DNA of 24,000 nucleotides, taken from positions 1 through 24,000 of the forward strand of contig JTLC01000017.1 of the NCBI GenBank assembly GCA_000798955.1, given 5' to 3'. This document shows positions 1-22,586 of the stretch, one piece after another. A model generated the notes under the pieces. That model worked only from the letters and a program-made list of their open reading frames with translations. It did no database searches and was not told the DNA's origin. Numbering within the stretch: position 1 is the stretch's first letter; each line of letters opens with the position of its first letter. The position numbers and the translations under genes were made by a program. The stretch comes from Firmicutes bacterium ZOR0006 (GTDB lineage Bacteria > Bacillota_I > Bacilli_A > Culicoidibacterales > ZOR0006).

Positions 1-195
1 GAAATGGTTGGGAGCAAAAAGCAATGCCGCCAACCATTTTCGATTTTCAGCCAATCACTAGGTGGAAGCACGTTTCAAGCAGAGTGTTCAACTGCGGTGC
101 CAAAGCTAAGATTACAAAGTGGCATCAAAGCGGAAAAAAAGGAAACAGATCAGACAAGCAACTCAATTTTTGAATTGCTTGTCTTTTTATTTTGC
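1..195 (+). repeat. Modular intergenic structured repeat, copy 1 (truncated by left window edge)
   Basis: Shares TTTTCGATTTTCAGCCAATCA, the body ..CTGCGGTGCCAAAGC..TTACAAAGTGGCATCAAAG.. and an A-tract/hairpin/T-tract end with the copies at 2984-3316 and 17843-18106. Hairpins at 2-11/30-39, 96-102/120-126 and 152-161/175-184. Confidence 0.7.
152..192 (+). terminator. Rho-independent terminator (3' hairpin of repeat copy 1)
   Basis: AGACAAGCAA/TTGCTTGTCT 10-bp stem followed by TTTTTATTTT. Confidence 0.6.
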
Positions 196-1968: not shown

Positions 1969-2979
1969 ATGAAACGTGAATTAGCAATTGAATTTAGTCG
2001 AGTGACAGAGGCTGCAGCCTTAGCCGGATTTAAATGGTTAGGACGTGGAGATAAAAACTTAGCAGATGATGCAGCTGTGAAAGCAATGCGCCACACATTT
2101 AATCAAATCGATATTCAAGGTGAAATCGTCATCGGTGAAGGTGAAATCGACGAAGCCCCAATGCTGTATATTGGTGAAAAAGTTGGAACTCAGCTTGGTG
2201 ATGCGGTTGATATTGCGATTGATCCAATTGAAGGAACACGAATGACGGCAATGGGACAACCAAATGCAATTGCCGTTTTAGCAGTTGGAGAAAAAGGCAC
2301 GTTCTTAAAAGCGCCAGATATGTATATGGAAAAATTAGTTGTTTGCCCAGAAGCGAAAGGACTGATTAATTTAGATGATTCATTAGAGGCAAATGTTCGC
2401 CGTGTTGCCCGTGCAACAGGGAAGCAATTGTCAGAATTAACAGTCATGACACTAGCAAAACCACGACATGAAAAAGTAATTCAACAATTACATGATTTAG
2501 GTGTTCGTGTTTTCGCGATTCCTGATGGTGATGTTGCAGCAAGTATTCTTGTCTGTATGCCAGAAAGTCAAGTGGATATGTATTATGGAATTGGTGGGGC
2601 ACCAGAAGGTGTTATTTCCGCAGCAGTCGTTCGTGCTTTAGATGGTGATATGGATGCTCGTTTAATGCCACGCCACGAAGTGAAAGGTGATACACCAGAA
2701 AATCGTGAATTAGGGATGGATGAACTTGCTCGTTGTGAAGCACTCGGAATTCAAGCAGGAAAAGTGATGAAAATAGATGAGCTTGTGAAAAATGATAATA
2801 TTATTTTCTCAGCAACAGGAGTCACAAAAGGGGATTTACTTGAAGGTGTTGCCCGTCGTGGAAACATTGCGACAACAGAAACATTAGTGATTCGTGGAAA
2901 ATCACGAACAGTCCGTCGTATTCAATCAACACATTACTTAAACCGCAAAGACCTCGAAATCCAAGATATTATTTTATAA
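1969..2979 (+). CDS. glpX: Fructose-1,6-bisphosphatase class II (GlpX type)
   Basis: MKRELAIEFSRVTEAAALAG.., DPIEGT and GIGGAPEGV motifs typical of GlpX. GAGGTG RBS lies 7 nt upstream of ATG 1969. Confidence 0.9.
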   Translation: MKRELAIEFSRVTEAAALAGFKWLGRGDKNLADDAAVKAMRHTFNQIDIQGEIVIGEGEIDEAPMLYIGEKVGTQLGDAVDIAIDPIEGTRMTAMGQPNAIAVLAVGEKGTFLKAPDMYMEKLVVCPEAKGLINLDDSLEANVRRVARATGKQLSELTVMTLAKPRHEKVIQQLHDLGVRVFAIPDGDVAASILVCMPESQVDMYYGIGGAPEGVISAAVVRALDGDMDARLMPRHEVKGDTPENRELGMDELARCEALGIQAGKVMKIDELVKNDNIIFSATGVTKGDLLEGVARRGNIATTETLVIRGKSRTVRRIQSTHYLNRKDLEIQDIIL

Positions 2980-2983
2980 GAGA

Positions 2984-3316
2984 GTGCTGACACCGATTTT
3001 CACCCCAAGATAATAGGGTGAAAACATGATGGCAGAGAAAATAAGGAAATGTTTGGTAGCAAAGAAATGTTGACAAACATTTTCGATTTTCAGCCAATCA
3101 TGAGGTGAAAGCATGTGTATAAAAAAGTGCCTGACTGTAGTGCCAAAGCGAAGGTTACAAAGTGGCATCAAAGTGGTATGAAAAATAAGGAAACAGAGCA
3201 TCAAAAGAGATGTGAGCTCTGTTTTCGATTTTTCGAGCTTTGAAGCAGGAAGCATGTGTATAAAAAAGTGCTTGACTGTGCTGCTAAGCCAAAGAATAGT
3301 AATAAGAAAGCACTAA
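2984..3316 (+). repeat. Modular intergenic structured repeat, copy 2 (full unit plus tandem second body: 2a and 2b)
   Basis: Starts right after the glpX stop. Hairpin A 2997-3005/3016-3024, T1 3047-3055/3074-3082, hairpin C 3140-3145/3163-3168, T2 3191-3199/3216-3224. The second body repeats the identical 21-mer AGCATGTGTATAAAAAAGTGC (3110-3130 and 3251-3271). Confidence 0.75.
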
Positions 3317-3352
3317 TACGATAGCGTAGTCACAATCATTTCTTGTAGGTAC

Positions 3353-3381
3353 TTTACATTTGGTATTGAACATGTTATAAT
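3353..3381 (+). promoter_or_regulatory. Strong candidate sigma-A promoter (orphan)
   Basis: TTTACA (3353-3358), 17-nt spacer, TATAAT (3376-3381). Confidence 0.55.
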
Positions 3382-3387
3382 AACTGA

Positions 3388-3457
3388 GATGATTTGACTG
3401 GATTCCGTTCATCAGGAATCCCCCAAAGCCCAGGGTCGAGCCCCTGGGCTTTTTTTT
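3388..3457 (+). ncRNA. Candidate ~70-nt small RNA or terminated leader upstream of ispDF
   Basis: Bounded by the promoter at 3353-3381 and a terminator at 3428-3457. Internal hairpin GGATTCC/GGAATCC (3400-3406/3415-3421). No ORF beyond ATG-ATT-TGA. Confidence 0.35.
3428..3457 (+). terminator. Rho-independent terminator
   Basis: GCCCAGGG/CCCTGGGC 8-bp GC-rich stem (3428-3435/3442-3449) followed by T8. Confidence 0.75.
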
Positions 3458-3495
3458 GTTTTTCACAAAAAAAAACACGCACAGGTAAGTAAGTT

Positions 3496-3504
3496 TGTTA
3501 TAAT
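3496..3504 (+). promoter_or_regulatory. Extended -10 promoter element for ispDF
   Basis: TGtTATAAT, 34 nt upstream of the ispD ATG. AGGAGG RBS at 3525-3530. Confidence 0.4.
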
Positions 3505-3537
3505 TGTGGGGATTTGAAATGAATAGGAGGAAATAGA

Positions 3538-4227
3538 ATGTATACAGCAATTCTTTTAGCAGCCGGAAGTGGTAGCCGAGCGGAACTCGGATATAACAAA
3601 GTCCTATATACATTGAGCCAGAAACCAGTTTTTATGTGGTCGTTAGAACAATTTTTAGCACAACCAGAGTGTAAGCAAGTATTGATTGTGACGCAAGAAG
3701 CAGAAATTGATACATTCACAGATTTATTAGAAGTGTTCCAAGTACTTGACCCACGGATTGAGTTTGTTGTTGGTGGCAGTGAACGCCAAGAAAGCGTGCA
3801 TAATGCATTACATAAAACGAGCCAACCATATGTCTTGATTCACGATGCCGCCAGACCATTTATCAATCAAGAACAATTAAGTACTTTATATGAACACGTG
3901 CAGGCGGATGAAGCAGTTATTTTAGCAGTGCCAGCCAAAGATACAATTAAGCAAGTAGAGAATGGTGTCATTGAGCAGACACATGAACGGCAGAAAATGT
4001 ATTTAGCGCAGACACCACAAGCATTTGCGACAAAGTTGATTATGCAGGCCCATCATCATGCAGTCACAATGGAAATCCAAGCAACAGATGATGCTTCATT
4101 AATTGAACAACTCTGTTTACGTGGCGTACATGTTGTTGCTGGCAGTTATGTGAATATGAAAGTCACAACGCCAGAAGATTTTGTTATTGCTGAGGCTTTA
4201 ATTGAGGGAGGGATGATTCAATCATGA
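3538..4227 (+). CDS. ispD: 2-C-methyl-D-erythritol 4-phosphate cytidylyltransferase
   Basis: N-terminal [11 protein letters not shown] motif and IHDAARP motif. Strong AGGAGG RBS. Translationally coupled to ispF (ATGA overlap). Confidence 0.92.
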
Positions 4228-16700: not shown

Positions 16701-17264
16701 ATGCGAAAGATTTTAGGAGTGTGCCTGGTAGTTATCGGAATTGGCTTCATGGTTATTGGTGGACAGCAGCTGTACACAGCGTATCAAGCAGAAACAAGTA
16801 GTTTAGGAGCAGCAAAGGAAATTTTGACAACTAATGGTATCGTTACAAAACCAGAAGAATTTATACAAGGTGATATTATTGGTCTTGTCCGCATTGAGCG
16901 ACTAGGTTTTGAATCGGCGATTGTTGAGGGAGTCAAAGACGAAGACTTAATCAAAGGGGCGGGACACTTAAGCGAAACGGCTTTGCCTGGAGACAGTGAT
17001 AAAATTGTCTTAGCAGGACATCGCAATCAAGCATTTGGGAAGCTTGAGCATGTTGAAGTTGGTGATCGTGTTGAAGTACAAACAATTTATGGTAATTATA
17101 CATATCGAGTTCGGGCAATGGCAGTTGTTGATGAAACACAAACGGAAATTTTATTACCAACGGCTCCGAAAGAAGAACTCGTGTTATTTACTTGTTATCC
17201 ATTTGTTTTTGGGGCACCAACGGAGCAACGCTATGTTGTATACAGTGATTTAGTGAGCGAATAG
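16701..17264 (+). CDS. Sortase-family transpeptidase (small, class D/E-like; class not resolved)
   Basis: N-terminal TM anchor, catalytic His in LAGHR, Cys in LFTCYP and Arg in EQRYVVY. Confidence 0.8.
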   Translation: MRKILGVCLVVIGIGFMVIGGQQLYTAYQAETSSLGAAKEILTTNGIVTKPEEFIQGDIIGLVRIERLGFESAIVEGVKDEDLIKGAGHLSETALPGDSDKIVLAGHRNQAFGKLEHVEVGDRVEVQTIYGNYTYRVRAMAVVDETQTEILLPTAPKEELVLFTCYPFVFGAPTEQRYVVYSDLVSE

Positions 17265-17296
17265 TGGAAAAGGACTAGTCCTTTTCCACTATTTTT
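17263..17296 (+). terminator. Rho-independent terminator after the sortase gene
   Basis: AGTGGAAAAGGAC/GTCCTTTTCCACT long stem followed by ATTTTT. Confidence 0.75.
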
Positions 17297-17325: not shown

Positions 17326-17675
17326 GGGGGTGTTTTGGATTCGACAGGTATGCTAGGGTATAGGTTGCAAGCCGGCGGTATTCCGTAACTTACACTCGTT
17401 TAATATAAACGGAAACTATAACACAAACTTAGCAGCTGCCTAATTAATTGTAGCTCCCTTATCGAGTAATCGCCCATGTTGCGCGAATAAGGGTCACTAA
17501 TGTGGGATACGCGTTACGCATCCGTCTGGTGCAAGACGAAGAGACTAATCAGGCTCGAAGGATAGATGGTTGTTCATTTCCAAGTTAGCCTTTTAAAAAT
17601 TTAGATGAACTAAGCTTGTAGATGCCTATATTGAGGTGTGCTTGGACACGGGTTCGATTCCCGTCACCTCCACCA
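17326..17675 (+). ncRNA. ssrA: Transfer-messenger RNA (tmRNA)
   Basis: 5' GGGGGTG pairs with 3' CACCTCC-ACCA, with a G3:U alanine-identity pair. GGATTCGACAGG near the 5' end and T-arm GGTTCGATTCCCG. Tag reading frame 17411-17443 is GGA AAC TAT AAC ACA AAC TTA GCA GCT GCC TAA, giving (A)GNYNTNLAAA. Confidence 0.95.
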
Positions 17676-17797: not shown

Positions 17798-17842
17798 GGT
17801 TTATTTGAGACTTCCATAGGCGGTAGCTCATTTCTGAAATAA

Positions 17843-18106
17843 GTGCTCGAAGCTGATTCCCACCTAGCGCACTAGGTGGGAAAATGATGGCATAGAAAAT
17901 AAGAAAACGGCTGAATCTCTCGAAAGAGGACACAGCCGTTTTTGATTTTCAGCCAATCATTAAGCTGAGACACGTTAAGAAATAAACGTCTGACTGCGGT
18001 GCTATCTCAAAGCAATAAAGGAAAGCATCGGTACGAGTAGAAAATACAAAGTTAAAAGCCTGTAGTCTATCACGAAAGTGAGAGCTACAGGCTTTTAATT
18101 TTTTTA
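17843..18106 (+). repeat. Modular intergenic structured repeat, copy 3
   Basis: Hairpin A 17859-17867/17872-17880, conserved linker AAAATGATGGCATAGAAAATAAGAAAA, T1 17904-17913/17933-17942, TTTTTGATTTTCAGCCAATCA, hairpin C 17997-18003/18024-18030, T2 18057-18065/18085-18093. Confidence 0.72.
18054..18106. terminator. Bidirectional terminator (3' hairpin of repeat copy 3; also ends the minus-strand repressor gene)
   Basis: AAAAGCCTGTAG/CTACAGGCTTTT stem flanked by an A-tract and T7. Confidence 0.7.
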
Positions 18107-18703
18107 GATATTACGAATAACTTGGATAACACGTCCAATGATTTTCGCTCCTTCTTGATTGATTGAAATTGGTTCATATAATTCATTTTCTGGTAATAAC
18201 CAATGTTCTTTGCCATCAAAACGATAACGTTTTAAGGTTGCGTTGTTATAATCGACTGAGGCGACAACAATTTCATTGTTATAAGCAGTCGGAGATTGTT
18301 GAACAACGACAATATCACCGTCAACGATATGAGCATTAATCATACTATCACCTTTCACTCGGAGAGCAAATAATGGTGAAGTTGGACGACGATTCATCAT
18401 TACTGGAATCAGTTCGGCATCGGCAGTAAGCATCTCAATTGGGACACCAGCAGTAACGAAAGAAACAAGTGGAACCTCAACAAAATCTACGACGTTGCGA
18501 TCAGGTAATTCAACTTCGATTAAAGAAGCAAGATCGAGTTGAAAATGATGGGCTAACTTTTCAAAAAATTGAATATTAGGTTGTCGCCGACCATTTTCGT
18601 AGTTCGCATAGGTAAATTGATTCATCCCTAATTGCTCGGCAACGTCTTTTTGGGTTAATTTGTGCTCTTTGCGATAGGCACGCATAGTTTCAATCCAAAG
18701 CAT
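18104..18703 (-). CDS. XRE-family HTH / S24 peptidase LexA-like (HdiR/CI-type) autocleavable repressor
   Basis: N-terminal HTH_XRE (LTQKDVAEQLGMNQFTYANYENGRR). Ala-Gly cleavage-site context VTAGVP, catalytic Ser in GDSM and Lys in TLKRY. AGGTGA RBS before ATG 18703. Confidence 0.85.
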   Translation of the reverse strand: MLWIETMRAYRKEHKLTQKDVAEQLGMNQFTYANYENGRRQPNIQFFEKLAHHFQLDLASLIEVELPDRNVVDFVEVPLVSFVTAGVPIEMLTADAELIPVMMNRRPTSPLFALRVKGDSMINAHIVDGDIVVVQQSPTAYNNEIVVASVDYNNATLKRYRFDGKEHWLLPENELYEPISINQEGAKIIGRVIQVIRNI

Positions 18704-18932: not shown

Positions 18933-21900
18933 ATGAAAAAAATATTTATTTTAGTGCTAACAATCGTAATGACAATGACAAATGTTTTGCCAACGATTGC
19001 TGCAACAACGACACGACAACAAGAAACAACAACAGCACCAAATAAATCAGGGAATGAAACCAGTGATTTAGGCGGGGAAACAGAATCAACAACAGGCGAA
19101 TTACTCCCAGAAACAACTATTCCAGAACAGCCGGAAACAACACCGGAGAACAACGAAGATAGAACAACAGTAGAAACACCAAGCGAAGAAGTACAAGAAG
19201 AGTTAGAGAACGAATCGGAAACAAACGCAGGTGAAGGGGAATCTGAAGAACAAGAAGTGCCGACAGAAGAAATAAGTAGACTTTATACAGAAAAAGCAAC
19301 ACCAATTGTGACTCAAGGTGTTCAAACATTCCGTAGTCAAGCAGTGATTAATGAATTTGCGAAGGGGCAAGTAAATTTTGATATTGACCCAGAAGTTGAA
19401 GCAGCATTTGCTGAACGTGTGCAAAGCGTCCAAGCATTTGAGCCGCAATCACCACAACCATATGAAGTTGCCGCGGTAACTGCGTCTGGCGACTATGTTT
19501 TTGTTGAAGGCCAAGCGACATACGATGCGGCAGTAGAACAAGCAGCTGAAGTTGTGGCGAATCAAGAAAATGCTGAAGTCAGCACAATTTTTGCAGATGA
19601 AAATATGGAAATTGTAGATGCTGTCGTATTGAATAACCAAGGAGTGATTACGTACAGTACACAGTCGAATATTGTTCGGGTTTTCAAAACGATTAATGGC
19701 GCACTTTATACTGGATGTGACAAAAATACGGATTTATATAGCAGTGCAACACTCAGCAGTGCATCAGGATATGTGAATCAATGTTATGTTGATGATGTAG
19801 CACTACTTGGAATTCAAGGGGATGCTGCTAAAGTTTTAGTTTCAGGTAAAGTTGCTTGGATTCGCATTTCAACGGATCTTGTGTTTGTGACACCACAACA
19901 AGTGACGAATCCAAGTTATTATGTGAATGAAAACGGAAATTTTGTGCACTTTATCACAAAAAACTTAACAAATCCAAATTCAGGTGGTTCGAAGATTACA
20001 ATTGGTCCTGCGAATACAACACTCGCAAATGGGACAAAATATTATAGTTATGATGGGAAGTATTTTTATACTGATCCAGAAGTAATTGGACCAGATATGG
20101 CCGATGGGGTGACAAACCAAGCAGTTAATGCCAGTAGTCCATACTATAACTATTTTCTGAATCTACCATTTAATAGTAAAGCAGTGGCGACAGCGGCACA
20201 AATTGATAGTTACATTAATGCCAATACACAGGCGACGAGTAAATTACGTAATACCGGGCAAGCATTTATTGATGCTCAAGAAAAGTACGGAATTAACGCG
20301 ATGTTGATGCTTGGAATTGCTATCAATGAAAGTGGTTGGGGAATGAGTGACATTGCCCAGACAAAAAATAATTTATTTGGTTTGAATGCGATTGACGCTA
20401 CACCTGGCGAGTCAGCGAATTACTTTTCAAGTGTTGCCCAATGTATTAATGATTATGCAAGCGATTGGTTAGCTCAAGGTTATGCTGATCCACAAGATTG
20501 GCGTTACTATGGCGGTATGCTTGGAAATAAAAATATGGGAGCAAATGTGAAGTACGCTTCGGATCCATTCTGGGCAGAAAAAGCGGCGGCCCATATTTAC
20601 ACGGTTGATCGTGGGATTAATGGGGGAAATTCAAAAGAGTGGAACTATTATTCAATTGGAATTTTCACAACACCAAATAGTGTCAAAAATGCATCGGGGC
20701 AAGAAGTTTATCCAATAACAGCACCAGATGCTAATGGAGTGTTGAGCTTATACAGTGGGTATACAGAAACACCGATTGTTTTGAAAGAAACAGATTCATC
20801 GGATGGAAAATATCTTGTGTGGCCAGCACGAAATAATATTCTCAGTAGTAGTAACAATGTACCAACAGCATTACCATACAGTTGGAACAGCAACGAGTAT
20901 GTGAATAGTAGTGGAGTTGAAGTAATAACAGGAATAAAATCGATGCAAGTTGCTAGCAGTTTTGATACCAAAACGATTAGTAATACTGGGACATTGAATT
21001 TAAATGGTTGGTTAATTAGTCAAAATATGAATATTTTAACATCCAATGATTTACGTGCCGAGTTTATTATCAATGATCAAACATACGCAACATCAACACG
21101 ATGGCAACGTAGTGATATCACGCCACTCTACGGTGGTGGACGTTATGAGTATCCATGGGCAGGGTTTGATTTGAAAGTCGATTTGTCTAGTTTAGCAATT
21201 GGAACATATACATATGCAATCAAATTAAGTGAAGAAGGATATCATACAACGAATATTACAATTCCAGGAACGATTAAACAAACGGTTGGAGATAAGATTA
21301 TTACCATAAGTGGTTCAACGATTAAAGTTGAAAGTGCAATTCAAACGATGCAACCGGTTTATAGTTTTGATCAATTGAATTTGGATACAAGAGGAAAGCT
21401 CAGCTTTTCTGGTTGGATGATTAGTAAGAATATGGATATTCTGACACCAAATGATATGAAAATTGAATTTGTGGTATCTGATAATGGCGATAAAGTCCTA
21501 GCAACGGCAGAGCGCTGGCAACGAGACGATATTACGTCATTATATGGAGACGGCAAGTATACTTACCCGTGGGCAGGGATGCGATTGAATGTAGATTTGA
21601 GTACATTGGCTGTGGGAACATATGCATATCACCTACGATTAAGTCAATCGGGATACCAAACAATGGGACTATCAATTCCGGGCATAGCAACTCAAATTGT
21701 GAATGGAAAAAAAATTACTATCAGTGGATCGACAATTAAAGTTGAAAGCGCGCCACAAACAATGCAACCGGTTCATAGTTTTGATTATGTAAAATTAAAT
21801 ACTGCTGGACAATTAGATTTCTATGGTTGGATGATTAGTAAAAATATGAATATTTTAACGCCCAATGATATGAAGATTGAATTTGTATTATCGAATAATG

Positions 21901-22586
21901 GTGATAAAGTCTTAGCAACAGCAGAGCGTTGGCAACGAGATGATATTACATCATTATATGGAGAGGGGAAATATGCTTATCCGTGGGCGGGAATGCGATT
22001 GAATGTAGATTTGAGTTCATTAGCGGCAGGAACATACGAATACCATTTACGCCTCAGCCAATCAGGGTATCAAACATATGGATTATCGATTCCAGGAACA
22101 ATTACTCAGTTAGTGAATGGAAAGAAAATCACAATAAGTGGCTCGACGATTAAAGTTGAAAATGCAATCCAAACAATGCAACCGGTTTACAGTTTTGATC
22201 AAATAAAACTAGATACGACAGGAAAACTCAATTTTTACGGTTGGATGATTAGTAAAAATATGAATATTTTGACACAAAGTGATATGAAAATTGAATTTGT
22301 ATTGTCGAATAATGGCGATAAAGTCTTAGCAACAGCAGAGCGTTGGCAACGAGATGATATTACACCTTTATATGGACAAGGAAATTATACATATCCGTGG
22401 GCGGGTATGAGGTTGAATGTAGATTTGAGTACATTAGCACCTGGTACCTATGGTTATCATTTACGCCTCAGTCAACCAGGATATCAAACATATGGATTAT
22501 CGATTCCAGGAACAACAAGCCAAGTGGTGAATGGAAAGAAAATCACAATAAGTGGCTCAACAGTCAAAATTGAACGAGTAAACTAA
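18933..22586 (+). CDS. Large secreted peptidoglycan hydrolase: signal peptide, acidic T/E-rich linker, GH73 N-acetylglucosaminidase domain, four C-terminal tandem repeats
   Basis: Signal peptide MKKIFILVLTIVMTMTNVLPTIAA. GH73 core ~20240-20610 (AFIDAQEKYGINAMLMLGIAINESGWGMS..NNLFGL..YASDPFWAEK). Four repeats at 20943-22583. No LPXTG, LysM or choline-binding motif seen. Confidence 0.88.
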   Translation: MKKIFILVLTIVMTMTNVLPTIAATTTRQQETTTAPNKSGNETSDLGGETESTTGELLPETTIPEQPETTPENNEDRTTVETPSEEVQEELENESETNAGEGESEEQEVPTEEISRLYTEKATPIVTQGVQTFRSQAVINEFAKGQVNFDIDPEVEAAFAERVQSVQAFEPQSPQPYEVAAVTASGDYVFVEGQATYDAAVEQAAEVVANQENAEVSTIFADENMEIVDAVVLNNQGVITYSTQSNIVRVFKTINGALYTGCDKNTDLYSSATLSSASGYVNQCYVDDVALLGIQGDAAKVLVSGKVAWIRISTDLVFVTPQQVTNPSYYVNENGNFVHFITKNLTNPNSGGSKITIGPANTTLANGTKYYSYDGKYFYTDPEVIGPDMADGVTNQAVNASSPYYNYFLNLPFNSKAVATAAQIDSYINANTQATSKLRNTGQAFIDAQEKYGINAMLMLGIAINESGWGMSDIAQTKNNLFGLNAIDATPGESANYFSSVAQCINDYASDWLAQGYADPQDWRYYGGMLGNKNMGANVKYASDPFWAEKAAAHIYTVDRGINGGNSKEWNYYSIGIFTTPNSVKNASGQEVYPITAPDANGVLSLYSGYTETPIVLKETDSSDGKYLVWPARNNILSSSNNVPTALPYSWNSNEYVNSSGVEVITGIKSMQVASSFDTKTISNTGTLNLNGWLISQNMNILTSNDLRAEFIINDQTYATSTRWQRSDITPLYGGGRYEYPWAGFDLKVDLSSLAIGTYTYAIKLSEEGYHTTNITIPGTIKQTVGDKIITISGSTIKVESAIQTMQPVYSFDQLNLDTRGKLSFSGWMISKNMDILTPNDMKIEFVVSDNGDKVLATAERWQRDDITSLYGDGKYTYPWAGMRLNVDLSTLAVGTYAYHLRLSQSGYQTMGLSIPGIATQIVNGKKITISGSTIKVESAPQTMQPVHSFDYVKLNTAGQLDFYGWMISKNMNILTPNDMKIEFVLSNNGDKVLATAERWQRDDITSLYGEGKYAYPWAGMRLNVDLSSLAAGTYEYHLRLSQSGYQTYGLSIPGTITQLVNGKKITISGSTIKVENAIQTMQPVYSFDQIKLDTTGKLNFYGWMISKNMNILTQSDMKIEFVLSNNGDKVLATAERWQRDDITPLYGQGNYTYPWAGMRLNVDLSTLAPGTYGYHLRLSQPGYQTYGLSIPGTTSQVVNGKKITISGSTVKIERVN
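20943..22583 (+). repeat. Four in-frame tandem coding repeats (405, 414, 414, 408 nt) within the GH73 gene
   Basis: Units start at 20943, 21348, 21762 and 22176, each opening with ATGCAA. Conserved ..GW(M/L)IS(K/Q)NM..WQR.DIT.LYG.G.Y.YPWAG..L.VDLS.L..GTY.. and ..ITISGSTIKVE... Units 2-4 are highly similar at the DNA level. Confidence 0.9.

What the first reader, a model, noticed from the sequence alone, without database searches (positions are those of the whole stretch)
2984..3316. Modular hairpin-rich intergenic repeat family with covarying stems (best copy, tandemly expanded)
Three intergenic loci (1-195, 2984-3316, 17843-18106) share a ~200-260-nt modular element. All are in + orientation, and the two loci whose upstream flank lies inside the window start right after the 3' end of a + strand gene or RNA. 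The layout is: hairpin A; the linker AAAATGATGGCAnAGAAAATAAGrAAA; hairpin T1; TTTTyGATTTTCAGCCAATCA; a body (..AGCAyGT, A-rich, GTCTGACTGyrGTGC..) containing hairpin C; a GAAAAATAAGGAAA-like A-tract; hairpin T2; and a T-tract. The linkers are conserved, while the stems differ yet stay complementary. T1 is AAATGGTTGG/CCAACCATTT (2-11/30-39), versus AAATGTTTG/CAAACATTT (3047-3055/3074-3082, where G>T is matched by C>A), versus the unrelated AAAACGGCTG/CAGCCGTTTT (17904-17913/17933-17942). Hairpin C is GGTGCCA/TGGCATC (96-102/120-126) and GTGCCA/TGGCAT (3140-3145/3163-3168), versus CGGTGCT/AGCATCG (17997-18003/18024-18030, where C>T is matched by G>A). Hairpin A is TTTTCACCC/GGGTGAAAA (2997-3005/3016-3024) versus CCCACCTAG/CTAGGTGGG (17859-17867/17872-17880). 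At this locus the body is duplicated in tandem, with the identical 21-mer AGCATGTGTATAAAAAAGTGC at 3110-3130 and 3251-3271. Compensatory stem changes and a fixed orientation argue for function at the RNA level, such as a 3'-UTR element, small RNA or terminator/insulator cassette, or for a BOX/MITE-like mobile repeat. I do not recognise it as a known RNA family.
Basis: seen in the sequence. Interest (0 to 1): 0.75.

Follow-up and report, generated by a model that had tools for sequence, protein, structure and literature searches.

The report
Structured tandem repeat modules behind genes
The three loci are head-to-tail arrays of a roughly 140-base module that folds into a conserved Y-shaped structure and sits just behind genes in one little-studied group of gut Firmicutes: a new family of a familiar kind of bacterial intergenic repeat, not a new kind of system.

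Summary
All quoted coordinates check out. The true repeat unit is a 132-154-nt module with at least three subtypes, arranged head to tail.

**Structure.** Every complete module except one (D2) folds the same way. Two short closing helices (P1, P2) lead to a three-way junction carrying hairpin H1 and a long hairpin H2. Covariation is strong: 91-94% of cells are paired, against 67-71% in shuffles, and 22/30 to 41/48 pairs show compensatory changes.

**Strand and position.** The fold is strand-specific (G·U 35 vs A·C 10, unpaired bases 76% purine). All five independent arrays share the orientation of the upstream gene. Four of them start 0-8 nt after its stop codon.

**Variation.** Module number differs between strains. 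Arrays are present or absent at the same sites in five related Culicoidibacterales species.

**Databases.** There is no match in Rfam, plasmids or phages.

**Best reading.** This is a lineage-specific, MITE/BOX/bcr1-like modular repeat, probably co-transcribed in 3' UTRs, where the RNA fold is under selection. A role as terminator or decay barrier is inferred, not shown.

The parts
1..81 (+). Array A: 3' part of a T1 module, cut by the window edge. The full array (T2-T1-T1-T2term, or T2-T1-T2-T1-T2term in another strain) starts 6 nt after the pfkB stop codon upstream of the window.
   Evidence: nhmmer (E 3e-14); CM (63 bits, 5'-truncated); L007 7669-8240; L036
81..205 (+). Array A: terminal, 3'-truncated T2 module. 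It has the 5' box, H1 (96-102/120-126) and the A-rich linker. Its H2 is a canonical terminator hairpin (152-161/175-184) followed by TTTTTATTTT.
   Evidence: The hairpin apex is inverted between strains.
2977..2979 (+). glpX stop codon TAA. Array B begins 2 nt later.
2980..3124 (+). Module B1 (subtype T1). P1 2984-2988/3110-3114. P2 2991-2994/3104-3107. H1 2997-3005/3016-3024. H2 3025-3055/3074-3102 (four stacked helices) with an apical helix 3058-3061/3068-3071. This module is absent as a clean 143-nt block in strains L009 and L012.
   Evidence: z = -8.0; 154 bits
3124..3265 (+). Module B2 (subtype T2). P1 3127-3130/3252-3255. P2 3135-3138/3245-3248. H1 3140-3145/3163-3168. H2 3169-3199/3216-3242, followed by TTTTCGATTTTT.
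   Evidence: E 2e-26; z = -3.8
3265..3345 (+). Module B3: a 3'-truncated T2 module (5' box plus H1 only). This is the end of array B.
   Evidence: E 1.6e-6, model positions 2-62
17839..17983 (+). Module C1 (subtype T1). P1 17843-17848/17967-17973. P2 17851-17854/17963-17966 (AGCT/AGCT, where B1 has CACC/GGTG). H1 17857-17867/17872-17882. H2 17883-17913/17933-17961.
   Evidence: z = -10.0; 147 bits
17984..18110 (+). Module C2: terminal, 3'-truncated T2 module. H1 is 17997-18003/18024-18030. Its H2 is an 18-bp terminator hairpin (18048-18065/18085-18102) with an A-tract before and a T-tract after. It probably acts as a bidirectional terminator shared with the convergent lexA-like gene (18104-18703, minus strand).
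   Evidence: (I25)

Best explanation
**Shown.** The loci are arrays of a lineage-specific, non-coding, 132-154-nt module.
- Each module has a conserved 5' box ((A/G)AGTGYY) and 3' box (RRCAYGTT) that pair as P1.
- A 4-bp helix P2 follows, then a three-way junction carrying hairpin H1 and a long, A-tract/T-tract-flanked hairpin H2.
- There are at least three sequence subtypes: T1, T2 and a third shared by L023 X1 and L046 D2.
- Modules are strung head to tail, 1 to 5 per array.
- Arrays follow the orientation of the upstream gene. Four start 0-8 nt after a stop codon (pfkB, glpX, rfbA, glnA) and one lies behind the tmRNA terminator.
- Arrays A, C and D end in a 3'-truncated module whose H2 is a genuine intrinsic terminator.
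- Whole modules are gained or lost between strains, and arrays are present or absent at the same sites in related species.

**Inferred.**
- The family is a non-autonomous, MITE/BOX/bcr1-like repeat.
- It colonises the short stretch between stop codon and terminator.
- It moves or converts between loci, and it expands and contracts by unequal recombination between the conserved boxes.
- No terminator separates it from the upstream gene, so it should be transcribed as that gene's 3' UTR.
- The fold is kept at the RNA level on that strand.
- The most likely effect is on the 3' end of the message: stable Y-shaped structures acting as leaky intrinsic terminators and as barriers to 3'-to-5' exonucleases, and so as insulators between neighbouring genes.
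- A net benefit to the host is not required.
For: **Common fold**
- 13 of 15 modules folded one at a time by MFE give P1-P2-[H1,H2], and D1 does so as well.
- z-scores run from -3.2 to -10.0 against dinucleotide shuffles.
- A covariance model built from four T1 modules alone recovers T2 modules (35-70 bits) and the sequence-divergent modules of another species (38-56 bits), all at full model length.

**Covariation**
- On a sequence-only MAFFT alignment, 91.4% of cells are paired, against 71.1% shuffled and 43-49% slid. 22 of 30 pairs have changes on both sides, and 0 of 500 shuffles reach this.
- On the model-fitted alignment, 94.1% are paired against 67.1% shuffled, with 41 of 48 pairs compensatory.
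- P2 is 100% paired across at least 8 different 4-bp sequences.

**Strand specificity**
- G·U 35 against A·C 10 in independent modules.
- Unpaired bases are 51% A, 25% G, 16% T and 8% C, compared with A 35% and T 32% in other intergenic DNA.
- The plus strand folds better than the minus strand in 12 of 14 modules.

**Context**
- Every module found in about 370 kb of held loci has the orientation of the upstream gene.
- Four arrays start 0-8 nt after a stop codon.
- The terminal modules carry terminators.

**Turnover**
- A 143-nt indel of exactly module B1 separates strains.
- Array A has 4 or 5 modules in different strains.
- Sites are empty in species L030, hold 1.3 modules in L026, 4 unrelated-interior modules in L023, and a half module in L043.
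- The H2 of D2 (after rfbA, window species) is nearly identical to the H2 of X1 (after glpX, another species).
- Several short-read contigs end inside arrays.

**Analogy**
- bcr1 is about 155 bp, flanked by 5-bp direct repeats, transcribed, folds into two stem-loops and shows compensatory changes (PMC3184786).
- bcr repeats are often part of UTRs (PMC3446304).
- Pneumococcal BOX, RUP and SPRITE are species-restricted, structured and co-transcribed (PMC3049150).
Against: - No expression, 3'-end or half-life data could be examined, so transcription and any terminator or stabiliser role are inferences.
- Internal H2 hairpins have large loops and interrupted T-tracts, and the terminator scan did not flag them.
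- Mobility is not shown. The only clean strain polymorphism is flanked by TATAA on both sides, which could be a target duplication. It could equally be a deletion between the similar borders of two modules. A B1-like half module in another species suggests B1 is old and was deleted in L009 and L012.
- No transposase or matching IS end was found.
- Only five independent arrays could be sampled, and almost all genes in the sampled regions lie on the same (leading) strand. Orientation relative to transcription therefore cannot be separated from orientation relative to replication (GC skew +0.10 to +0.20).
- The G·U excess could be inflated by alignment optimisation and by C-to-T bias on the leading strand.
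- The B1 half module is about 93% identical (by eye, over 57 nt) between species whose radA genes are 83% identical. That is more conservation than a purely selfish, decaying repeat predicts.
Confidence: 0.6

Rival explanations
1. The modules are genes for a functional non-coding RNA family, not parasitic repeats. In this reading, arrays in 3' UTRs are processed at the conserved junctions (..GCAYGTT / spacer / AGAGTGY..) into module-sized Y-shaped RNAs. These would act in trans, for example as protein sponges or base-pairing regulators.
For: - Structural covariation is very strong, and the three-way-junction geometry is precisely conserved (J23 = 0 nt and J31 = 1 nt in 8 of 11 modules).
- The signatures are strand-specific.
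- The boxes at module borders are the most conserved part across species, even where the interiors are unrelated.
- The B1 half module is about 93% identical (by eye) between species that are 83% identical in radA.
Against: [quoted passage not shown]
- No conserved single-stranded 'seed' exists. The conserved stretches are base-paired with each other.
- No promoter-like site is conserved within modules.
- Interiors are freely replaced between species.
- No Rfam family matches.
Confidence: 0.15
2. The fold matters in single-stranded DNA, not RNA. In this reading, the modules are palindrome-associated elements mobilised or copied by a single-strand-specific HUH (IS200/IS605 or RAYT-type) transposase. 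The enzyme would recognise hairpins on one strand during replication, which would explain the fixed orientation.
For: - Strand-specific hairpins that tolerate G·T are also expected for single-stranded DNA substrates.
- All arrays lie on the strand with positive GC skew.
- Hairpin apices flip between strains, showing that these palindromes do extrude or template-switch as DNA.
- A gene with a weak IS605 OrfB-type HTH hit begins next to ispD in one related MAG.
Against: - IS200/IS605 and REP systems recognise conserved hairpins, whereas here the hairpin sequences vary freely and only their pairing is kept.
- No transposase gene lies near any array.
- A suspected IS remnant upstream (L038 8512-9284) had no Pfam support.
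- Starting right after stop codons and ending in terminators fits a transcript-level filter better.
Confidence: 0.12
3. The apparent compensatory changes are produced mechanically. In this reading, template switching within quasi-palindromes copies a change from one arm to the other, with no selection on any folded molecule, and the arrays are neutral junk.
For: Apex inversions between strains show that template switching operates on these hairpins. Many stems are perfect palindromes.
Against: - Template switching makes perfect Watson-Crick arms. It does not explain a 3.5:1 excess of G·U over A·C, 76% purines in unpaired positions, or better folding of one strand.
- It cannot maintain long-range helices P1 and P2, whose arms lie about 110-125 nt apart across two other hairpins yet are 100% (P2) and 88% (P1) paired.
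Confidence: 0.05
4. The region is protein-coding (minus-strand ORFs 2974-3255 and 3284-3613), or it is a CRISPR-like or toxin-antitoxin RNA array.
For: ORFs of 93 and 109 aa overlap array B. The arrangement is a regular array of repeats.
Against: - Neither ORF reaches a Pfam gathering score. The 93-aa ORF has only a sub-threshold DUF3360 match (12.5 vs 26.2 bits) and the 109-aa ORF has none.
- The strain indel of 143 nt and module lengths of 132-154 nt are not multiples of 3.
- No gene was called there in any assembly.
- 'Repeats' of about 30 nt separated by about 110-nt structured, partly conserved interiors do not fit CRISPR. No cas or toxin gene is adjacent.
Confidence: 0.01

Closest known systems
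bcr1 (group A repeat of the Bacillus cereus group)
   Same: - Found in Firmicutes, about 155 bp, intergenic and non-coding.
- Folds into a stem closing two independent stem-loops.
- Compensatory changes keep the RNA fold.
- Flanked by 5-bp direct repeats.
- Non-conserved distribution between close relatives.
- Often part of UTRs (PMC3184786, PMC3446304, PMC6542083).
   Different: - No detectable sequence similarity. A distant blastn search against plasmids, a collection expected to include B. cereus-group plasmids that carry bcr1, gave nothing.
- The flanking repeat here is TATAA at the one informative site, not TTTAT.
- These modules form head-to-tail arrays of mixed subtypes, start at stop codons, and all share the orientation of the upstream gene.
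Pneumococcal BOX elements (and RUP, SPRITE)
   Same: - Modular, variable in length through the number of internal modules.
- Strongly structured and species-restricted, with lower density in sister species.
- Co-transcribed with neighbouring genes.
- SPRITE is terminator-like (PMC3049150, PMC3184786).
   Different: - BOX is boxA-(boxB)n-boxC, with only the 45-nt boxB repeated.
- Here every repeated module is a complete, self-closing three-way junction of about 140 nt, and the only special end piece is a truncated last module carrying a terminator.
- No sequence relationship is known.
REP / BIME clusters of Enterobacteria and Pseudomonas
   Same: - Mosaic arrays of palindromic units and linker motifs in 3' regions of genes.
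- Implicated in mRNA stabilisation, termination and recombination (PMC3184786, PMC3733652).
   Different: - REPs are 20-40-bp GC-rich palindromes of conserved sequence, often in alternating orientation and associated with RAYT transposases.
- Here the units are about 140 nt, all in one orientation. The hairpin sequences vary while pairing is kept. No RAYT is known.
Classical bacterial MITEs (ERIC, Correia/NEMIS, RUP) and Enterococcus faecalis EFAR
   Same: - 100-200 bp, no transposase gene, ends that are inverted repeats.
- Fold into long hairpins in RNA and affect flanking transcripts (PMC3184786).
- From my own recollection, not checked in a paper here: EFAR are built from variable assemblies of sequence modules, fold into two stem-loops and insert at terminator-like hairpins.
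   Different: - The inverted ends here are only about 5-8 nt and imperfect.
- A target duplication is not proven, and no parent IS is known.
- Tandem head-to-tail arrays and strict co-orientation with the upstream gene are not typical of MITEs.

Membership tests
MITE (as defined in PMC3184786) | Short (<200-400 bp), no transposase gene, core able to fold into a long stem-loop as RNA | tested here: met
   Modules are 132-154 nt. Pfam gives nothing above the gathering score. MFE z-scores are -3.2 to -10.
MITE (as defined in PMC3184786) | Terminal inverted repeats | tested here: inconclusive
   The 5' box AGAGTGCY and 3' box RGCACGTT are inverted copies over only about 5-8 nt, with mismatches. 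Their pairing covaries (GTGC/GCAC, GCGC/GCGC), which fits a helix as well as it fits a transposase site.
MITE (as defined in PMC3184786) | Flanking target-site duplication | tested here: inconclusive
   The one strain-polymorphic module (B1, 143 nt) is bounded by TATAA on both sides. A deletion between the similar borders of B1 and B2 explains this equally well. Other arrays show similar but not identical pre-module sequences.
MITE (as defined in PMC3184786) | A cognate IS or transposase with matching ends in the same genome | not testable with these tools
   No complete genome of the lineage could be scanned.
bcr1 (B. cereus group) | Sequence similarity to the bcr1 consensus | tested here: not met
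   Indirect test. blastn in distant mode of B1+B2 against 72,556 plasmids gave no match. bcr1 copies occur on B. cereus-group plasmids (PMC6542083). The consensus itself was not available.
bcr1 (B. cereus group) | Closing stem plus two independent stem-loops, kept by compensatory changes | tested here: met
bcr1 (B. cereus group) | Flanked by the TTTAT motif | tested here: not met
   The borders here are TATAA, TTGTAG, GAAATAA or AGAAAG, depending on the array.
BOX (S. pneumoniae) | boxA-(boxB)n-boxC organisation, with only boxB variable in number | tested here: not met
   Arrays consist of complete self-folding modules of mixed subtypes, for example T2-T1-T1-T2t and T2-T1-T2-T1-T2t.
REP/BIME | 20-40-bp GC-rich palindromes of conserved sequence, commonly in alternating orientation | tested here: not met
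   Units are about 140 nt with 34-50% GC. All are on one strand, and stem sequences vary.
Any Rfam 15 family | Covariance-model score at or above the family's gathering score | tested here: not met
   Only tmRNA passes in the window. Permissive scans of array B and of L003 and L023 give only sub-threshold hairpin-like chance hits.
Intrinsic (Rho-independent) terminator | Stable stem-loop immediately followed by a U-tract | tested here: inconclusive
   Met for the terminal modules: 152-184 + TTTTTATTTT, 18048-18102 + TTTTTTT, and L046 D3. Internal H2 hairpins are followed by TTTTCGATTTT(T) but have large loops, and the scan did not flag them. Activity was not measured.
CRISPR array | 23-55-nt repeats separated by unique spacers of similar length, usually with cas genes | tested here: not met
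   The 'spacers' would be about 110 nt, structured and shared between loci. No cas genes are in the neighbourhood.

The most novel reading that the evidence does not exclude
The modules are not junk. They would be a new class of functional, modular 3'-UTR RNA: a Y-shaped three-way-junction domain whose conserved border boxes are processing or protein-recognition sites. Genes would acquire it in variable copy number to set mRNA 3'-end stability, read-through or localisation. Alternatively, it would be released as module-sized RNAs acting in trans.

Three observations are compatible with this reading:
- the unusually clean covariation;
- the strand-specific composition;
- the about 93% conservation of a half module between species only 83% identical in radA.
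Probability: 0.2. Interest if true: 0.6.

Novelty: new member of a known kind. Interest (0 to 1): 0.4.

Why it matters
- It gives the barely studied order Culicoidibacterales (gut bacteria of insects and fish) its first described repeat family.
- The secondary structure is well defined and backed by covariation, and a working covariance model exists for annotation.
- The family explains why short-read assemblies of these genomes break at particular intergenic sites.
- It offers a clean natural experiment for asking what such structured 3'-UTR repeats do to mRNA ends. The same genes occur with 0, 1, 2, 4 or 5 modules in closely related strains and species.
- It is also a caution for RNA-motif discovery. 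Strong covariation and fixed orientation can come from a proliferating repeat that is filtered by transcription, and need not mark a dedicated regulatory RNA.

Tried and rejected
- **Rfam.** Scanned at gathering and at permissive thresholds on the window and related loci. Only tmRNA passed, and there was nothing at the arrays.
- **Public collection scans with the conserved 21-mer.** The genome scan gave one true relative (L003) and five chance hits. The metagenome and viral scans gave only chance hits that match nothing beyond the 21-23 nt.
- **blastn against plasmids and phages.** No match.
- **GlpX homologues as a route to related species.** This failed because the gene is gammaproteobacterial-like.
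- **RadA homologues.** These showed no relatives between 65% and 90% identity.
- **Cluster members.** These did give four further species.
- **Coding potential of the minus-strand ORFs.** Rejected.
- **Small plus-strand ORF starting at ATGATGGCA.** Rejected, because it is interrupted by TAG in copy C (sequence).
- **CsrA-sponge or Shine-Dalgarno-decoy idea for AAGGAAA.** Rejected, because that stretch is base-paired with the T-tract.
- **Promoter inside modules.** Promoter-like sites are no more frequent than in shuffles, and none is conserved.
- **Hammerhead-like ribozyme.** The junction strands are only 0-2 nt in most modules (8 of 11) and lack the conserved cores, and Rfam gives no hit.
- **Suspected IS607/TnpB remnant upstream (L038 8512-9284).** No Pfam support.
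- **Walking the 118-kb MAG contig.** Via cluster ids I obtained about 25 kb upstream and about 13 kb downstream. This yielded one further array (D) and otherwise none.
- **The bcr1 paper.** Could not be read.
Full report
**Source and context**

The window is from a Culicoidibacterales bacterium (class Bacilli). Its RadA, IspD, GltX, RNase R and LexA-like proteins are identical or nearly identical to proteins of MAGs so named. The region is collinear with contig JBOFHI010000083.1 of GCA_051649565.1.

The genes run radA (493-1905), glpX (1969-2979), ispD, ispF, gltX and onward, then tmRNA (17326-17675, Rfam 184.8 bits), then a convergent lexA-like gene (18104-18703, minus strand). GC skew is positive throughout (+0.10 to +0.20), so the plus strand is probably the leading strand. 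Nearly all genes lie on it.

**Check of the observation**

The repeat finder links the three loci independently (D3, D4, D14). The 16-mer GATTTTCAGCCAATCA occurs exactly three times, and counting up to 3 mismatches gives 4 matches against 0.6 expected by chance.

**Re-parsing the anatomy**

Aligning the copies with the sequence upstream of the window (L007) and with a copy found after glnA in another MAG (L003) shows the real unit. It is a module of 132-154 nt that begins with (A/G)AGTGYY and ends with RRCAYGTT, repeated head to tail.

The two subtypes are homologous along their whole length. The loci then read as follows:
- Locus 2984-3316 is B1(T1)-B2(T2)-B3(truncated T2).
- The 'tandemly duplicated body' is simply the next module.
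- Locus 1-195 is the tail of a 4-5-module array that starts 6 nt after the pfkB stop codon.
- Locus 17843-18106 is C1(T1)-C2(terminal T2).

**The fold**

When modules are folded one at a time, 13 of 15 give the same architecture (coordinates), and module D1 from a further array does so too. The exceptions are the truncated B3, the species-2 module S2 and D2. The architecture is:
- a 5-bp helix P1 between the 5' and 3' boxes;
- a 2-nt internal loop;
- a 4-bp helix P2;
- a three-way junction carrying H1 (5-11 bp) and a long H2 (25-35 bp with small internal loops).

The junction strands are only 0-2 nt in 8 of 11 modules.

Folding energies are 3.2 to 10 standard deviations below dinucleotide shuffles for 12 of 12 modules.

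A covariance model built only from four T1 modules finds two further groups over the full model length:
- T2 modules, at 35-70 bits;
- the modules of a different species, whose interiors have no obvious sequence similarity, at 38-56 bits (E 4e-13 and 6e-8).

**Covariation**

| Alignment | Cells paired | Shuffled | Slid | Pairs changed on both sides |
|---|---|---|---|---|
| MAFFT only, 9 modules | 91.4% | 71.1% | 43-49% | 22 of 30 |
| Model-fitted, 16 distinct rows | 94.1% | 67.1% | 40-47% | 41 of 48 |

In both alignments, none of 500 shuffles reaches the observed values.

P2 is the most telling helix. Its arms lie about 110-125 nt apart, yet it is 100% paired. Its sequences include CACC/GGTG, ACAC/GTGT, CTGT/GCAG, AGCT/AGCT, AGCC/GGCT, CAGT/ACTG, CAAC/GTTG and AACT/AGTT.

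The modules are paralogues with an unknown genealogy, so these numbers are not formal probabilities. The contrast with both controls is nevertheless very large.

**Which molecule is constrained?**

Three measures are strand-asymmetric:
- In ten independent modules, helix positions hold 35 G·U against 10 A·C.
- Unpaired positions are 51% A, 25% G, 16% T and 8% C. Other intergenic DNA of the window has A 35% and T 32%.
- The plus strand folds better than the minus strand in 12 of 14 modules, with 52 against 32 G·U pairs.

These point to selection on the plus strand as a single strand, which means RNA or, less likely, single-stranded DNA.

A purely mechanical origin of the 'compensatory' changes was considered, because hairpin apices are inverted between strains (window 161-175 against L007; L010 near 3453-3474). 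Template switching within quasi-palindromes cannot explain the G·U excess or the long-range helices P1 and P2.

**Context**

Five independent arrays were found:
- A, after pfkB;
- B, after glpX;
- C, after the tmRNA terminator;
- D, after an rfbA-like gene about 10 kb beyond the window (L046 5375-5752);
- G, after glnA in another MAG.

All are in the orientation of the upstream gene. No module was found in the opposite orientation anywhere in the held loci (about 370 kb, much of it redundant). The only minus-strand hits were partial matches of the palindromic H2.

The four arrays behind protein genes begin 0-8 nt after the stop codon, with no terminator in between. They must therefore be entered by transcription of the upstream gene. 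This is an inference.

Arrays A, C and D end in a 3'-truncated module whose H2 is a canonical terminator. Array B ends in a module truncated after H1.

With only five arrays, and nearly all neighbouring genes on the leading strand, orientation relative to transcription cannot be separated from orientation relative to replication.

**Turnover**

Within the species:
- Strains L009 and L012 lack exactly module B1. This is a 143-nt block bounded by TATAA on both sides.
- Array A is T2-T1-T1-T2t in one strain and T2-T1-T2-T1-T2t in another.

Five species, about 81-83% identical in radA, differ at the same sites:

| Species | After glpX | After pfkB / before radA | Elsewhere |
|---|---|---|---|
| L030 | none | none (plain terminator) | |
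| L026/L049 | 1.3 modules | none | one module behind tmRNA |
| L023 | four modules, same boxes, unrelated interiors | a module junction at the contig start | |
| L043 (same MAG as L003) | only the 5' half of a B1-like module, about 93% identical by eye over 57 nt | no module detected | array G after glnA |

The H2 of module D2 (after rfbA, window species) is nearly identical to the H2 of X1 (after glpX, L023 species). The L026 module after glpX is most similar to A1 after pfkB. Related modules therefore sit at non-orthologous sites.

Several short-read contigs begin or end inside arrays, as expected for multi-copy repeats.

In about 63 kb of non-redundant sequence from the window species there are four arrays. 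Extrapolating to the order of a hundred arrays per genome is only a guess.

**Interpretation**

Taken together, the family behaves like the small structured intergenic repeats known from other bacteria.

- **bcr1** of the Bacillus cereus group is the closest in form. It is about 155 bp, has two stem-loops closed by a stem, shows compensatory changes, is flanked by 5-bp direct repeats, varies in distribution between strains and is found in UTRs (PMC3184786, PMC3446304, PMC6542083).
- **Pneumococcal BOX, RUP and SPRITE** are modular, structured, species-restricted and co-transcribed. Their authors judged them parasitic (PMC3049150).
- **BIME** arrays are the nearest match for the mosaic arrangement.

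It is not a member of any of these:
- It has no sequence match in Rfam, plasmids or phages.
- Its organisation differs from boxA-(boxB)n-boxC.
- It lacks the TTTAT borders of bcr1.
- Its palindromes are not of the REP type.

I therefore file it as a new member of a known kind. The best-supported mechanism is as follows. It is a non-autonomous repeat that occupies the stretch between stop codon and terminator. It changes copy number by recombination between its conserved boxes. It is co-transcribed in 3' UTRs, and it is kept foldable as RNA. Its most likely effect is leaky termination and protection against 3' exonucleases.

What is shown: the structure, its covariation, its strand asymmetry, its position and its turnover. 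What is inferred: transcription, the effect on mRNA ends and the mode of spread.

**What argues for more than a selfish repeat**

- The junction geometry is strikingly uniform.
- The border boxes are the most conserved part across species.
- A half module is more conserved than neighbouring coding DNA.

These keep open a functional 3'-UTR RNA domain or processed small RNAs (probability about 0.2).

**Limits**

- No complete genome of the lineage could be scanned.
- The genome and metagenome pattern scans were exhausted early.
- No transcriptome data were available.
- The bcr1 consensus could not be obtained.

Noticed in passing
window 1969-2979: GlpX (class II fructose-1,6-bisphosphatase) is 73-76% identical to Enterobacterales and Aeromonas proteins. 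Its only closer relative (97%) comes from the same lineage. The gene sits between radA and ispD in all five related species, so this looks like an old horizontal acquisition from Gammaproteobacteria.
   Followed up: partly
window 3353-3460 (also L030 12536-12625, L043 3340-3425): A strong promoter-like site (TTTACA-17-TATAAT with TG, 3353-3381) is followed by a roughly 70-nt element: hairpin GGATTCC..GGAATCC and then a GC-rich terminator (3425-3452). It lies just upstream of a second promoter-like TGTTATAAT and ispD. The element is almost invariant across species that are 83% identical in radA, including species without repeat arrays. The terminator stem shows compensatory changes (CCCAGGG/CCCTGGG against CCCTGGG/CCCAGGG). 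No Rfam family matches. It is a candidate small RNA or leader.
   Followed up: partly
window 161-175; window ~3453-3474 (in L010): The apex of a terminator hairpin is reverse-complemented between strains: CAACTCAATTTTTGAATTG in the window against CAATTCAAAAATTGAGTTG in L007. In L010 the loop TTTTTCAC is replaced by GAAAAAC. These are inversions of palindrome tips, as produced by hairpin template switching.
   Followed up: partly
window 2973-3130, 17835-17995; L023 2795-3260: Within an array, the few bases just before the first module resemble those before each later module: TATAA in array B, TTGTAGAG in L023, GAAATAA in array C and AGAAAG in L003. In L023 this includes the last codon and the TAG stop codon of glpX. 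This could reflect repeated target duplication, or homogenisation of junctions by gene conversion. It remains unexplained.
   Followed up: partly
window 18933-22586 (repeats 20938-22421): A 1217-aa ORF contains three to four tandem 414-nt (138-aa) repeats that are 62-84% identical. It is probably a repetitive surface protein. The 118-kb MAG contig appears to end inside this gene.
   Followed up: no
window 17326-17675: The tmRNA has the predicted tag peptide GNYNTNLAAA. A perfect 34-nt palindrome (17260-17293) lies immediately upstream of it, at the end of the sortase-like gene (I24).
   Followed up: no
L043 4359-4433; L036 16037-16086: In the related MAG WFFMC_MAG_212, a gene with a weak IS605 OrfB-type HTH hit begins right after ispD, where ispF follows in the window. 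In strain L036, the sequence downstream of array A diverges from the window just before the contig ends. Both suggest structural variation next to the arrays.
   Followed up: no
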